IMG/VR virus record: IMGVR_UViG_3300020042_012255
Span: 1-38,764 of that record
Source: a virus
Lineage: Duplodnaviria > Caudoviricetes
Length of the DNA: 38,764 nt
Reading direction: 5' to 3' (one strand)
Shown here: positions 13,285-28,289 of the stretch, one piece after another
How the letters are laid out: the number at the start of each line of letters is the position of its first letter
How positions within the stretch are numbered: position 1 is the stretch's first letter
Notes under the pieces: generated by a model
What the model was told of the DNA's origin: nothing
The model's database searches: none
Seen by the model: only the letters and a program-made list of their open reading frames with translations
Position numbers and translations under genes: made by a program

Positions 13285-13892
13285 TTATAGTCTTTGAGTT
13301 ACGTTTAGACCAGTCACCCAGTTTTGGTTAGTGATCGCTCTCGCAATCGCAAACTTAGCGTAGAGTTGGCTGTTTTGTGCAACTGACGAAACAACGTAAG
13401 GAGGTCTATATCCCAACACTGCCGAATAGTTGTTTTGCTCGATTTTTGCAGCAGCTTCCATGCCATACATTGGAATTGTATAGACGGTTTGTCCACCTGG
13501 TTGAGAGATTCCAGGAATCTTCGCGGCTTTAGAGCTGACAAAGAATCTAAATCTGGAAACAGAGCAATACTCTTCTGGTCTCAATCCCTGCTGGTTTGGA
13601 TATGCGTTCTTTAAAAGAACACCCTGCACGTTTTGAAGGTCAGGTGTAATATCTGTAGAAGCAAGTGCTATAAACGCATCTCGAGTAGGAGCTGTTGCAA
13701 ACTTAAGATCTGCATCAATTCCTTCAAGCATTGTTCTTGCATCATTACCAAGCAAAATACGTTCGATGTTGTTCACATCATTACGAGAGATTTCGCTGGG
13801 CTGCTGGCCGTTGATACCCCCGACTGCGTTTAAATAACTTACGCTTGAAGCGTACAGGTCACGCATTAGCAAATCTTCCTTCTCTCTCATCC
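13285..13892 (-). CDS. Major capsid protein (N4-gp56-like), exon 2
   Basis: (W)MREKEDLLMRD...EEYCSVSRFRF...ITNQNW is the C-terminal part of an HK97-fold capsid; in frame with exon 1 after splicing. Confidence 0.85.
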
Positions 13893-14148
13893 CTAAAAAA
13901 ATTTTTTTACAATTTTTTTCTGTTACTTTTGTGACCCTGTGTAATCATTACACATTGGCGGTGCAACTTCTTCGAATCGCACTCTCTATGTTTCCATAGA
14001 GTTCAGACTATCGCTTACCCTATTTCTAGAGTCCCTCTCACTTAGTCGTTCACGGTGGCTTTCGCCTTCCGCCCTGTTATCCGTCTGCTTTAAGCAGCGA
14101 GGACGTCCAAGTCAATCAGAGTGGGTTTAAAGTCAGCAGATAATGTTA
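13893..14148 (-). ncRNA. Group I self-splicing intron (256 nt, no homing endonuclease ORF)
   Basis: P1 GUCAGU/GCUGAC with U-G at the 5' splice site; P10 UUAUCU/GGAUGA; P3 CCCACUC/GAGAGGG; P7 GACUA/UAGUC; P8; P9 CUCUAUG-GAAA-CAUAGAG; terminal G. Removal restores CAG-TGG-ATG in frame. Confidence 0.92.
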
Positions 14149-14509
14149 ACTGACCTAATAATGCAGTGAACTTTGTAAGAACCTTATCGTTCTCATACAA
14201 AGTAACTTGCTCATTTATGACTACTGTCTTAGCATAAATTTCTGTTGTAGCATCAATATCAGTACGTACGACAACTTCAGGAGCTGGATCAATACCAGAA
14301 CCATCAAGTTGACCGCCTTCTGTTGATAGACGCTCATATCTCGACATACGAGTAGTTTTACCGATGTGCGCTTCAGCATAGTGAAGGTCAGCACCAAAGG
14401 AGTGAATTAAATTGAACATTGGCGTGCTTAAGAGATCTTCGCTAAATTGTAGCGGAAGCTCCGGAGCCATGTTCTGAATGTTTGTGATACCTGTAGTAGA
14501 AACAGACAT
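14149..14509 (-). CDS. Major capsid protein (N4-gp56-like), exon 1
   Basis: GKTTRMSRYERL...LDGSGIDP capsid N-terminal motifs; 120 codons plus 1 nt. Confidence 0.85.
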
Positions 14510-22719: not shown

Positions 22720-22933
22720 TTTCCCTTTCCTTAATCTTTTCAGTAATCTCTACAGCTAGATCGAAGTCAATTTTAAACTTGCGAATAAGTACTGAAGGAG
22801 AAATCTTTTTCTCTTTAGAGAGTTGTAGGCATTCATAGAATAGATCGGTGTTCATATCATCTTCTATATCCAGCACAATCAAGACACACAAGTCCCAGCG
22901 ATCTCCATAATTCAACAATCTCAGCATTTTCAT
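22709..22933 (-). CDS. Small winged-helix-like protein (FtsK-gamma-like pattern)
   Basis: KKISPSVLIRKFKIDFDLA; the true start is probably the internal Met (MNTDL). Confidence 0.5.
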   Translation of the reverse strand: MKMLRLLNYGDRWDLCVLIVLDIEDDMNTDLFYECLQLSKEKKISPSVLIRKFKIDFDLAVEITEKIKERENER

Positions 22934-23474
22934 CTAAACAAAATAGTACGTCATAGTTGTCTCGAATATGCTTTTCGTAGATTTCTCGTTTGATTTCAAC
23001 GTCTGGTCGGAAATCATCATCTGGGCGCATGAAAAGATTCTCAAATAAAACATTTGGATGTTCTAATGTTTTATACATATCAAAATCGCCTTCCCATTTA
23101 TATATCCATTGACCAATCTGAAAACTAGTTAACAATCTAAATTTTTCTTTTCTTGCAGTGACAAATAAAATTTCTAAGCCCCACCAACATTGTACCAATA
23201 AATCTACACACCACTCATTCGGAGTGTCGTGAATCATGGCGGCATTGAATGCATTCCAATCTGGCTTCCATTGTTTATTTGTATCTTTATATAAAAATCC
23301 AGATTTGCCATTTAAGTATTTATCTGATTCTTCCCAGTTGATAGATTGACTACAATAATATAAATCAAAACTACCGCATTTGTTTTTTACAAAATTGTAA
23401 TCAACAAAATGTCTTCTATGGTTTATATTCGCGAGCGTTCCGTCAATATCACAAATTATTGCTTTAGTTTTCAT
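22857..23474 (-). CDS. HAD-family polynucleotide 3'-phosphatase (T4 PNK phosphatase-like, no kinase domain)
   Basis: AIICDIDGTLA, FVTAR, LFMRPDDDFRPDVEIKREI, CLDEN...WRSLGL. Confidence 0.85.
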   Translation of the reverse strand: MKTKAIICDIDGTLANINHRRHFVDYNFVKNKCGSFDLYYCSQSINWEESDKYLNGKSGFLYKDTNKQWKPDWNAFNAAMIHDTPNEWCVDLLVQCWWGLEILFVTARKEKFRLLTSFQIGQWIYKWEGDFDMYKTLEHPNVLFENLFMRPDDDFRPDVEIKREIYEKHIRDNYDVLFCLDENAEIVELWRSLGLVCLDCAGYRR

Positions 23475-26069: not shown

Positions 26070-26315
26070 TCAAAATCCGTCTCCAGATCCATCTCTATTT
26101 CCAGATCCATCTAGGTGTGCAAATCCATACCCATATGCATCTTCAAATCCAGATCCAGATCCAGAACCAAATCCATCTCCTTCTCCAGATACACATCCAG
26201 ATCCAGAACCGTAACTAAATCCAGATCCAAATCCATAGCCATGTCCAGAGCCATGTCCAGAGCCATGTCCAGAGCCATGTCCAGAGCCAAATTCAAAATC
26301 TATTACTCTTTCCAT
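26070..26315 (-). CDS. Gly/Ser-repeat (GSG/GYG/GDG) protein
   Basis: Low-complexity GX repeats, including the 12-nt tandem AGCCATGTCCAG x4 (26237-26284); coupled to the upstream gene. Confidence 0.7.
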   Translation of the reverse strand: MERVIDFEFGSGHGSGHGSGHGSGHGYGFGSGFSYGSGSGCVSGEGDGFGSGSGSGFEDAYGYGFAHLDGSGNRDGSGDGF

Positions 26316-26590
26316 ACAGGAACTTCTTTTATAGATTTTTTTGCCTCTTCCGTTACTGATAAAATTTCTATTGCTTGTAAAAGTTCTATTTTCCCTACTT
26401 CACATGGAAATTTACACTCATTCGGTTTTTTAGTTCCTTCCATCGCAAGTTGAGACAAAGTAGCAGCACCTTCCCAGTACCAGATTCTTCTAGCATTAAT
26501 TAAAACAACTTCTTGTCCATTTCTGCTTTCTAATTCTCCAGCAAACACTCCAGCTGAATATGTTCTAACAATTACATATGGTTTTTCCAT
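26303..26590 (-). CDS. Conserved phage protein (DUF6948-like)
   Basis: VIVRTYSAGVFAG...ARRIWYWEGAATLSQLA motif. Confidence 0.75.
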   Translation of the reverse strand: MEKPYVIVRTYSAGVFAGELESRNGQEVVLINARRIWYWEGAATLSQLAMEGTKKPNECKFPCEVGKIELLQAIEILSVTEEAKKSIKEVPVWKE

Positions 26591-26885: not shown

Positions 26886-27026
26886 ATGACTAAACCCGAT
26901 TTGTGCTTTATAGTAGCTAGAATCCCTACCGCAATTCATAAAAAGTTGAAGAAATATTGCTTAGAAAATGAAACTTCTGTGCAGAAACTATTAGAAAATT
27001 ATATAACTTCAATCCTTTTAAAATAA
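26886..27026 (+). CDS. Ribbon-helix-helix DNA-binding protein (ParG/Arc-like)
   Basis: FIVARIPTAIHKKLKKYC...SVQKLLENYI; AGGA SD before ATG 26886. Confidence 0.7.
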   Translation: MTKPDLCFIVARIPTAIHKKLKKYCLENETSVQKLLENYITSILLK

Positions 27027-27250
27027 TGGATGTTATGGATCAAAATTACGAAAAATCAAAAACACTTCTTTCAATAGAGCAACTATCGCAGAGGCATCCT
27101 GCGTTCAGCCCTTCGGCGATTAGGCATCTTATATTTGATGCTAAAACAAACGGGTTTGATCAAGTGATCTTTCGGGTGGGTAGAAAGGTAGTTTTGGAAG
27201 AATCTGCATTTGTAAATTGGGTATTACAAAAAAATGAAGTGGAAAACTGA
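27026..27250 (+). CDS. Small excisionase/AlpA-like DNA-binding protein
   Basis: LLSIEQLSQRHPAFS..AIRHLIF...NGF...RVGRKVVL. Confidence 0.7.
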   Translation: MDVMDQNYEKSKTLLSIEQLSQRHPAFSPSAIRHLIFDAKTNGFDQVIFRVGRKVVLEESAFVNWVLQKNEVEN

Positions 27251-27358: not shown

Positions 27359-27532
27359 ATGCAAGAAGACTTCTTAGACGCAGTTTTAACTAAAAAGATT
27401 GATAGACTTGAAAAATGGATGTTTAGGCTTCAGAAAGAGATGCATTTTCTGAAGAACGTGCATTCTTTGAACAAGGGACATAAGATCAATAAGAAGATAG
27501 AGCAGTTAGATTTATTTCAAAAAATAGGATAA
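27359..27532 (+). CDS. 57-aa coiled-coil protein with C-terminal QLDLF motif (not in the ORF track)
   Basis: MQEDFLDAVLTKKIDRLEKWMFRLQKEMHFLK...IEQLDLFQKIG; AAGGA SD. Confidence 0.7.
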   Translation: MQEDFLDAVLTKKIDRLEKWMFRLQKEMHFLKNVHSLNKGHKINKKIEQLDLFQKIG

Positions 27533-27536
27533 AAAC

Positions 27537-27761
27537 ATGGTGGAAATAGAAAAAATTAATTTATTTTCTGACAGAGTTGAATCTTTAATAAAAGAATTGT
27601 CTGTTTCTAGTGATGAAATTTGCCCATCTCTTTTAACTATTATAGCATATGAGATTTATTACAATAATGATAAAGAAGAAAGAGAAAAATTATGCAAAAA
27701 ATGTTACACAATCACTAAAAATATAATAAAATTTTTAGATATATATAATGGTAAAAAATGA
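27537..27761 (+). CDS. Hypothetical protein
   Basis: 74 aa, TAGGA SD. Confidence 0.6.
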   Translation: MVEIEKINLFSDRVESLIKELSVSSDEICPSLLTIIAYEIYYNNDKEEREKLCKKCYTITKNIIKFLDIYNGKK

Positions 27762-27816
27762 TTGACGAAGAAAAAAACGAAGGACTCAGATCCCAACCCG
27801 ACTCTCCGTGGGGACG

Positions 27817-27862
27817 CTTTGCGACTGTTAAACAGTTTCGACTTTCGTCTCATCAGGCAAAA
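27817..27862 (-). ncRNA. Hammerhead ribozyme, type I
   Basis: UUUUGC-CUGAUGA-GAC(GAAA)GUC-GAAA-CUGU(UUA)ACAG-UC^GCAAAG: complete catalytic core, three stems and a GUC cleavage triplet. Confidence 0.92.
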
Positions 27863-27909
27863 AAGGAAAGCTGCACCACAACATTATCCTTCTCGGTGGC
27901 CTTGTGCTT

Positions 27910-28152
27910 TTAATTATCTTCTTCTCCGTAGGCTATTTCCCTACATTCATGTATCTTATCCCTTAATTCTTCCAGCTGATATACTAAGTTATGCAAAAAC
28001 TCTTCCTGGGTTTCTTCATCAAGAGTTTTAAATACTTCGGCAAAATCTTTGTTTCTGCAAGCAATAGAAGCTCTATTGTCCCAAATTTCATGATCTAGAA
28101 TAGCATCTAAAAGAACTGAAATTTTACCCAAGTCTTCTACTCTCTCTCTCAT
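27910..28152 (-). CDS. Hypothetical helical protein
   Basis: ATG 28152 overlaps the upstream stop (TAATG). Confidence 0.65.
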   Translation of the reverse strand: MRERVEDLGKISVLLDAILDHEIWDNRASIACRNKDFAEVFKTLDEETQEEFLHNLVYQLEELRDKIHECREIAYGEEDN

Positions 28153-28289
28153 TAACAACCCTTTTTCATCATTTTTTTGGCTTTATCTACTTTTGAATCC
28201 ATCTTCTTGTCAGATTTTAGCAAAGACTTTTCTGCTGAAGATTCTTTTTTTCTAATACTTTGAAAAGCTGATTTAATTTTTTTATCCAT
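28152..28289 (-). CDS. 45-aa lysine-rich protein (not in the ORF track)
   Basis: MDKKIKSAFQSIRKKESSAEKSLLKSDKKMDSKVDKAKKMMKKGC; GGGTG SD. Confidence 0.65.
   Translation of the reverse strand: MDKKIKSAFQSIRKKESSAEKSLLKSDKKMDSKVDKAKKMMKKGC

What the first reader, a model, noticed from the sequence alone, without database searches (positions are those of the whole stretch)
27817..27862. Type I hammerhead ribozyme at the junction of two convergent transcription units
Seen on the minus strand: stem I UUUUGC/GCAAAG, CUGAUGA, stem II GAC-GAAA-GUC, GAAA, stem III CUGU-UUA-ACAG and a GUC triplet. Cleavage is predicted between 27823 and 27822. It lies 47 nt after the stop of 27910..28152 and points into the oppositely transcribed RHH/Xis/QLDLF operon. 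Inference: self-cleavage defines the mRNA 3' end, or releases a 5'-OH antisense RNA against the regulatory operon. With the intron, this small genome carries two ribozyme classes.
Basis: partly seen in the sequence, partly recalled or inferred. Interest (0 to 1): 0.85.

Follow-up and report, generated by a model that had tools for sequence, protein, structure and literature searches.

The report
Hammerhead nicking a symmetric knotted RNA
The hammerhead fold is real, but it is an optional insert in a small, doubly knotted, two-fold symmetric phage RNA that no catalogue searched lists; it likely nicks that RNA at one fixed point, so that one end piece would swap places with its twin, rather than trimming a neighbouring mRNA.

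Summary
In detail: a canonical type I hammerhead lies at 27862-27817 (-), and 0/300 shuffles match it.

The interpretation needs changing. The hammerhead sits inside a 129-nt element (27907-27779) whose flanks form four helices and two pseudoknots, built from two similar halves, A and B.
- I found 144 distinct members, mostly in phage contigs; 44 of 45 records searched hold exactly one copy.
- In an independent set of 94, helices P1, P3 and P4 pair at 98.6-99.8%, against 69-83% when partners are swapped.
- Three arrangements occur: A-hammerhead-B (window), A-B without a hammerhead (12) and permuted hammerhead-B-hairpin-A (9).
- The first base of half A's leader equals the first base after the cut in 91/94 (chance 43), so both leaders fit stem I.
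- tRNA neighbours (26/144) are all on the same strand.
- A relative 88% identical lacks the element, so it is not a conserved regulator of this operon.

Best reading: the hammerhead likely nicks a stand-alone RNA that stays paired, and leader A then replaces leader B in stem I. Rfam and nine paper searches show no such family; three earlier scan notes describe what appears to be the same one. Nothing is tested experimentally.

The parts
27779..27907 (-). Whole element: half A, hammerhead, half B (129 nt; GC 51% against 26-30% in the flanks)
27901..27907 (-). Leader A (GCACAAG); its first two bases equal those after the cut, so it is a candidate alternative 3' strand of stem I
27896..27900 (-). 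P1 5' strand (pseudoknot 1), pairs with 27879-27875
27886..27892 (-). P2 5' strand (outer helix), pairs with 27785-27779
27875..27879 (-). P1 3' strand
27865..27871 (-). P3 5' strand, pairs with 27807-27801
27817..27862 (-). Type I hammerhead; predicted cut between 27823 and 27822; 27822-27817 is both stem I 3' strand and leader B
27811..27815 (-). P4 5' strand (pseudoknot 2), pairs with 27794-27790
27801..27807 (-). P3 3' strand
27790..27794 (-). P4 3' strand
27779..27785 (-). P2 3' strand
27771..27777 (-). U7 run after the element; possible transcript end (a competing hairpin precedes it in the MFE fold; the terminator scan did not list it)
27533..27909 (.). Variable cassette (74-aa ORF 27537-27761 plus the RNA element), absent in a close relative
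27910..28289 (-). Two small leftward ORFs whose transcript probably runs into the element (inferred)

Best explanation
The hammerhead is an optional module inside a single-copy phage small RNA made of two similar halves locked by four helices, and it likely nicks that RNA exactly at the start of half B, after which leader A would take leader B's place in stem I. SHOWN by sequence comparison: the four-helix double pseudoknot (order leader A-P1a-P2a-P1b-P3a-[insert]-leader B-P4a-P3b-P4b-P2b); the three arrangements; the fixed position of the hammerhead cut site at the first base of leader B; equality of the first bases of both leaders and their complementarity to the bases before CUGA; one copy per genome; same-strand placement among tRNAs; absence from close relatives. 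INFERRED: the RNA is made by read-through from 28289-27910 (-) or cut out of tRNA operons elsewhere; the hammerhead cleaves (about 0.85); the pieces stay together through P2 and P3; leader A then pairs with positions 2.1-2.x, hindering re-ligation and leaving a free 5'-OH leader B (about 0.5). GUESS (about 0.3): the nicked RNA is a stable ligand or decoy for a protein that handles 5'-OH / 2',3'-cyclic phosphate ends, such as an RNA-repair ligase or an end-sensing nuclease.
For:: 57 of 80 distinct type-I-closable cores fit the cage with score 55 or more (next 36); none with a 4-bp GAAA-capped stem II did; window score 55, 0/3000 flank shuffles reach it; a profile built from 11 subtype relatives without the window finds the window as best hit over positions 8-135 (46 bits), against 20 bits for a locus with the same core and no cage. 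(set chosen by half B only): 94/95 have half A; P1 99.3%, P3 99.8%, P4 98.6% paired against 68.7/83.1/69.7% with swapped partners; P2 score 19.9 vs 10.9; A1=B1 in 91/94 (permutation mean 42.6, max 58); both bases equal in 48/57 at exactly -12 (mean 17.6, max 29); this holds within each of three subtypes; only B1 and the base before CUGA covary clearly with A1 (MI 1.12, 1.02; other independent positions 0.30 or less), and leader A pairs as many bases as leader B; 13 of 22 pairs change on both sides among 12 hammerhead-less members (slid controls 3-6); permuted form; tRNA nearby in 26/144, all sense, against 0/40 other hammerhead cores; 4 start within 2 nt of a tRNA 3' end; 44/45 records have exactly one match; empty sites.
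Against: There is no experiment on cleavage, folding or exchange. The window is the weakest member (score 55, several G-U pairs), and its MFE fold uses competing hairpins (-37.8 kcal/mol against -20.3 for the nested part of the cage plus hammerhead, pseudoknots not scored). Leader A pairs more weakly than leader B in the window (-1.6 vs -4.0 kcal/mol) and in 26 of 56 members (A stronger in 11, equal in 19), so exchange needs tertiary help. Twelve members have no hammerhead and 7 have a decayed or replaced one, so the nick is not always needed or is made otherwise. In 10 of 85 a 13-20 bp closing helix is possible, which in the cases inspected includes leader A. Permutation controls ignore relatedness. 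The RtcB link is weak: 4/100 records vs 0/46 controls (one-sided Fisher about 0.22, by hand), adjacent in 2 of 80 neighbours scanned.
Confidence: 0.55

Rival explanations
1. Circle maker: after cutting at leader B, the hammerhead ligates its cyclic-phosphate end to leader A, giving a small circular RNA (85 nt here, 27907 to 27823) and releasing half B. The cage itself may supply the needed 5'-OH at leader A by self-cleavage, which would make it a new ribozyme class.
For: The three-way covariation is what a ligation acceptor would show. Conservation starts abruptly at A1 (0.06 bits at -1, about 2 bits at +2 to +4, where the search anchors partly fix the bases), as for ribozymes that lie 3' of their cut. 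Four members begin at a tRNA 3' end like theta ribozymes (PMC10879173 passages). In 10 of 12 hammerhead-less members the base before leader B is complementary to A1/B1. Predicted circles are 79-104 nt.
Against: No NUH triplet precedes leader A (8/57), so the hammerhead cannot make that end. Transcription starts and RNase Z ends carry 5' phosphates (established knowledge), and a TAnnnT excess 6-7 nt upstream (16 of 116) hints that some leaders start at promoters. The HDV-like P3/L3/P1.1 core is absent. Perreault et al. looked for spliced or circular products at other phage hammerheads and found none.
Confidence: 0.2
2. Folding timer: leader A, made first, occupies the 5' strand of stem I during transcription and delays cleavage until half B has folded into the cage. 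The cage is then a stable protein-binding or nuclease-blocking RNA, and the nick only relaxes it.
For: The same covariation; leader A precedes leader B in 116+ of 144 members; weaker pairing of A than B in many members fits a temporary blocker.
Against: A1=B1 also holds in 9/9 permuted members, where A is made after B, and in 12/12 without a hammerhead, though several of these are related.
Confidence: 0.15
3. One reading: a free-standing hammerhead that defines the 3' end of the leftward mRNA or releases an antisense RNA against the rightward regulatory operon.
For: Position between convergent ORFs; phage hammerheads are proposed to split transcripts (PMC3088659, section read).
Against: Embedded in a conserved cage that keeps the products paired; absent from relatives with the same genes; no conserved context in the family; the U-run ends the element before the opposite ORF.
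Confidence: 0.07
4. Selfish or decaying cargo: a mobile RNA cassette, possibly already non-functional in this phage.
For: Patchy presence, empty sites, varied contexts, lowest cage score in the set.
Against: One copy per genome, no conserved mobility gene beside it, intact core and all four helices, placement in tRNA arrays.
Confidence: 0.03

Closest known systems
Type I hammerhead ribozymes of bacteria and prophages (Rfam RF00163; Perreault et al. 2011, PMC3088659)
   Same: Full consensus core, short stem II, open stem I, phage intergenic location.
   Different: Stem I opens into a four-helix double pseudoknot that also exists without the hammerhead. The pseudoknots described in the passages read join stems I and II; these do not involve loop II. 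A second leader fits stem I.
HDV-like / theta ribozymes (Kienbeck et al. 2024, PMC10879173)
   Same: Double pseudoknot, phage-borne, some begin at a tRNA 3' end, no conservation 5' of the first base.
   Different: No P3/L3/P1.1 core; different helix order; two-fold internal symmetry; usually carries a hammerhead; no Rfam HDV-like hit.
Non-circularly permuted hammerheads SGC/CSG/GCS (Eckert et al. 2023, PMC10085705)
   Same: Hammerhead core amid several pseudoknots.
   Different: Here the core keeps the ordinary type I order; it is the host RNA that is circularly permuted.
Two-piece (permuted) tmRNA and permuted tRNA genes (recalled, no call)
   Same: A small RNA gene found in one-piece, nicked and circularly permuted forms, among tRNA genes.
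   Different: No tRNA-like domain or tag ORF (ARAGORN finds none in the window); the break is made by a ribozyme.

Membership tests
Type I hammerhead (RF00163) | Core C3 U4 G5 A6 N7 G8 A9, G12 A13 A14, A15.1-U16.1, H17 | tested here: met
   no deviation
Type I hammerhead (RF00163) | Three stems, II and III closed, I open | tested here: met
   6, 3 and 4+1 bp
Type I hammerhead (RF00163) | Rfam gathering score 34 bits | tested here: not met
   26.6 bits
Type I hammerhead (RF00163) | Stem I / loop II tertiary contact | not tested
   A U-run beside stem I and a GAAA loop II are present; the contact was not examined
Type I hammerhead (RF00163) | Mg2+-dependent self-cleavage after NUH | not testable with these tools
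   needs an in vitro assay
RAGATH-1 hammerhead (RF03152) | Model match at gathering score 56.3 including the 5' extension | tested here: not met
   19.8 bits, positions 25-77 only
HDV-like / theta ribozyme | Nested P1-P2-P3-P1.1(-P4) topology with L3 and a J4/2 cytosine | tested here: not met
   Only 3-9 unpaired nt between P2a and P1b, no P3 hairpin; no Rfam hit
HDV-like / theta ribozyme | First base at a tRNA 3' end | tested here: inconclusive
   4 of 144 within 5 nt; the window has no tRNA
Non-circularly permuted hammerheads (SGC, CSG, GCS) | Rearranged order of core blocks | tested here: not met
   order is CUGAUGA, GAAA, cut site = type I (PMC10085705 passages)
Uncatalogued two-half double-pseudoknot RNA (this report) | Helices P1-P4 in family order and spacing | tested here: met
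   score 55, 0/3000 shuffles
Uncatalogued two-half double-pseudoknot RNA (this report) | Leader A dinucleotide at -12 equals N1.1-N1.2 | tested here: met
   GC / GC
Uncatalogued two-half double-pseudoknot RNA (this report) | Sequence match to relatives beyond the hammerhead core | tested here: met
   46 bits full length to the subtype profile; no hit to the main-subtype hammerhead-less model R1, so it is a divergent subtype

The most novel reading that the evidence does not exclude
The knotted, two-fold symmetric core is itself a new class of ribozyme that exchanges two equivalent 5' leaders at one phosphate (cut and rejoin through a cyclic phosphate), so that one half is excised as a circle of about 50-100 nt. 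The hammerhead is a plug-in that supplies the first cut, and the one-piece, nicked and permuted genes are three routes to the same catalyst.
Probability: 0.2. Interest if true: 0.92.

Novelty: categorically new. Interest (0 to 1): 0.74.

Why it matters
Why bacteria and phages carry self-cleaving ribozymes is an open question (PMC6765202 and PMC10085705 passages say so). Here a hammerhead has a definable job: cutting a specific host RNA at a fixed base. The host RNA is small (about 100 nt), widespread in phages (144 distinct members found; about 210 IMG/VR stretches estimated for one subtype's half B), uncatalogued in Rfam, internally symmetric and naturally permuted. Its second leader fits the ribozyme's substrate site, which gives a cheap in vitro test for strand exchange, circle formation or a new catalytic class. 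The hammerhead alone would be an ordinary new member.

Tried and rejected
Exact 22-nt core in IMG/VR: 0 hits. Homologues of ORF 27026-27250: none confirmed.

Known-fold ideas (twister, pistol, hairpin, hatchet, glmS, HDV-like, SRP Alu, group I P6 insertion) came from recalled motifs and were dropped: helix order does not fit, and Rfam gave no hit over the cage.

A conserved partner protein was rejected: 459 neighbouring ORFs gave a largest cluster of 6 (NinG-like). RtcB enrichment was not significant (100 of 118 viral element loci and 46 controls searched).

The antisense ORF 27758-27913 was rejected as a family gene. It has no PHROG hit and is absent in L328. Stop-free antisense frames exceed shuffles (45/57 vs mean 32, max 42) but are spread evenly over all three frames (24/21/20).

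A U-rich 3' tail is not a family trait (0.30 vs 0.28 U). Pairing of leader A with the AUCURG junction was dropped by eye for lack of covariation. One search used wrong columns for two helices and was redone.

No RNA holder was listed; none of the four laid DNA runs covers 27818-27891. Model R1 did not detect the window or its subtype. The host was not determined. No structure or complex prediction was run.

Full report
1. The observation. The window is a complete 38,764-base virus record with direct terminal repeats, with terminase, portal, tail-fibre, ERF, RecE-like, RusA and SSB genes. A descriptor scan found it as the only compact type I hammerhead in the window, and 0 of 300 dinucleotide shuffles gave an equal. 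Rfam RF00163 gives 26.6 bits, under its cut-off of 34. The fold is not the MFE of the local sequence.

2. Finding relatives of the RNA. A pattern for hammerheads with a GAAA loop II returned 88 viral loci. Most real ones were type III with a 4-bp stem II, but those with a 2-3-bp stem II shared flanking structure with the window. Further scans gave 11 genome, 48 metagenome and 54 viral loci. Of 139 distinct cores with an intact stem II, 80 could be closed as type I with full flanks (5 more lay at contig edges and were left out). Of those 80, 57 fitted a four-helix descriptor with score 55-76, one scored 36 and 22 gave no fit. The order is leader A, P1a, (C)A, P2a, loop, P1b, junction, P3a, U-run or hairpin, hammerhead, leader B, P4a, CCA-like joint, P3b, loop, P4b, junction, P2b. 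P1 and P4 are pseudoknots. The two halves mirror each other in leader, joint and junction.

3. The window is a member. It has the lowest score (55), but 0 of 3000 shuffles of its flanks reach it (max 52), and the element is a GC island of 51% in 26-30% flanks. A sequence-only profile from 11 members of its subtype, built without the window, ranks the window first among 34 sources at 46 bits over model positions 8-135. A locus with the same core and no cage gets 20 bits. The model of the main subtype does not detect it, so it is divergent.

4. Independent test. A pattern for half B alone, with no hammerhead letters, returned 121 loci; the scan was cut off and about 210 were estimated. These gave 95 distinct hits, 94 of them with half A located by sequence anchors. 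P1, P3 and P4 pair in 99.3, 99.8 and 98.6% of cells against 68.7, 83.1 and 69.7% with partners swapped, with up to four pair types per position; three P3 positions were fixed by the pattern. P2 scores 19.9 against 10.9. On a plain MAFFT alignment of the 12 hammerhead-less members, 13 of 22 pairs change on both sides, against 3-6 in slid controls; P2 is poorly aligned there, 65% paired. These controls do not remove relatedness.

5. Three arrangements. Among the 94: 66 are A-hammerhead-B like the window, 12 join A to B by 1-3 bases with no hammerhead, 9 are permuted (hammerhead, half B, hairpin, half A; 8 shown directly), and 7 have a decayed or replaced insert. Wherever a hammerhead is present, its cut falls at the first base of leader B. 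Pooling both sets gives 144 distinct elements. They include prophage-like loci in a Bdellovibrionales MAG and Marinibaculum pumilum.

6. The second leader. Two bases exactly 12 nt before the end of P1a equal the two bases after the cut in 48 of 57 (permutation mean 17.6, max 29; other offsets 0-6). Seven of the nine misses match at +-1, and the pattern recurs with different dinucleotides in each of three subtypes. In the independent set A1=B1 in 91 of 94. Only B1 and the base before CUGA covary clearly with A1, and leader A can pair with the 5' strand of stem I over as many bases as leader B, though often more weakly: window -1.6 vs -4.0 kcal/mol; B stronger in 26, A in 11, equal in 19. There is no conservation and no NUH 5' of leader A. 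I infer that stem I is built to accept either leader.

7. Context. In 45 records searched with the model, 44 had exactly one match; the miss belongs to another subtype. tRNA genes lie within 300/250 nt of 26 of 144 members, all on the same strand, against 0 of 40 other hammerhead cores. Four members start within 2 nt of a tRNA 3' end, and three of these are followed by the next tRNA 3-4 nt later, which outlines the mature RNA. No neighbour gene is conserved and flanking orientation is mixed. RtcB is the immediate neighbour in 2 of 80 ORFs scanned and occurs in 4 of 100 records against 0 of 46 controls, which is not significant. In this phage lineage the element is accessory. L328, about 88% identical, has the two convergent stops overlapping and lacks 27533-27909. 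One contig of run X4 skips 27756-27916 and another skips 27529-27909.

8. Mechanism. Shown: structure, arrangements, leader covariation, copy number, strand, absence in kin. Inferred: transcription, cleavage, retention of both pieces by P2 and P3, and takeover of stem I by leader A, which would hinder re-ligation and expose a 5'-OH leader B (0.55 overall). The cellular target is unknown; my guess is a protein that binds ribozyme-type RNA ends (about 0.3).

9. What is known. Hammerheads in prophages are long known (Perreault 2011: passages, section 6 and a supplement motif search). Eckert 2023 was seen as outline, passages and supplement search, Kienbeck 2024 and Weinberg 2019 as passages, and Fremin 2023 as passages plus a supplement search in which files 1, 2 and 4 could not be searched. 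None of what I saw describes this core. Nine searches (listings only) and Rfam 15 found no such family. Subscription papers and large alignment files remain unseen, so it may be listed there as an unnamed motif. They agree but are not independent support, and part of one was later marked as fallen. The summaries shown do not mention the internal symmetry, the permuted form, the leader covariation or an empty site.

10. Verdict. The hammerhead is real and, alone, ordinary. The RNA that holds it is an uncatalogued, well-supported structural family with a sharp, testable prediction. Interest 0.74.

Noticed in passing
window 13891-14150 (-): Probable group I intron between ORFs 14509-14090 and 13890-13285 (RF00028 23.1 bits, below cut-off); L089 carries two similar stretches in the matching region. 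The 3' splice site was not defined.
   Followed up: partly
window 22857-23474 (-): Polynucleotide-kinase family protein (phrog_415, E 6.6e-33); such enzymes can heal cyclic-phosphate RNA ends (recalled).
   Followed up: no
window 27910-28152 (-); L089-L093: The MRERVEDL ORF sits in different gene neighbourhoods in the five related loci found, i.e. a mobile small gene.
   Followed up: partly
window 26070-26590 (-); L273: A Gly/Ser-repeat ORF and its upstream partner resemble, by eye, the two ORFs right before the permuted element in L273.
   Followed up: no
L105 56-1186, L150 773-1978: RtcB ligase genes start directly downstream of family members.
   Followed up: partly
L211, L225, L241, L284, L321, L234: Members whose hammerhead is decayed or has core changes while the cage is intact.
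   Followed up: partly
L216, L295, L235, L256, L260, L281, L309, L324, L250, L211: A 13-20 bp helix can close the whole element; inverted repeats also flank L037 and L062.
   Followed up: no
L118, L133, L192, L193: Other short-stem type I hammerheads with shared flanks that do not fit this cage; possibly another motif.
   Followed up: no
L001-L088: Many type III hammerheads preceded by a small hairpin and followed by a ribosome-binding site and start codon.
   Followed up: no
L136 about 1300-1345: Tandem duplication of the hammerhead core stretch inside a member.
   Followed up: no
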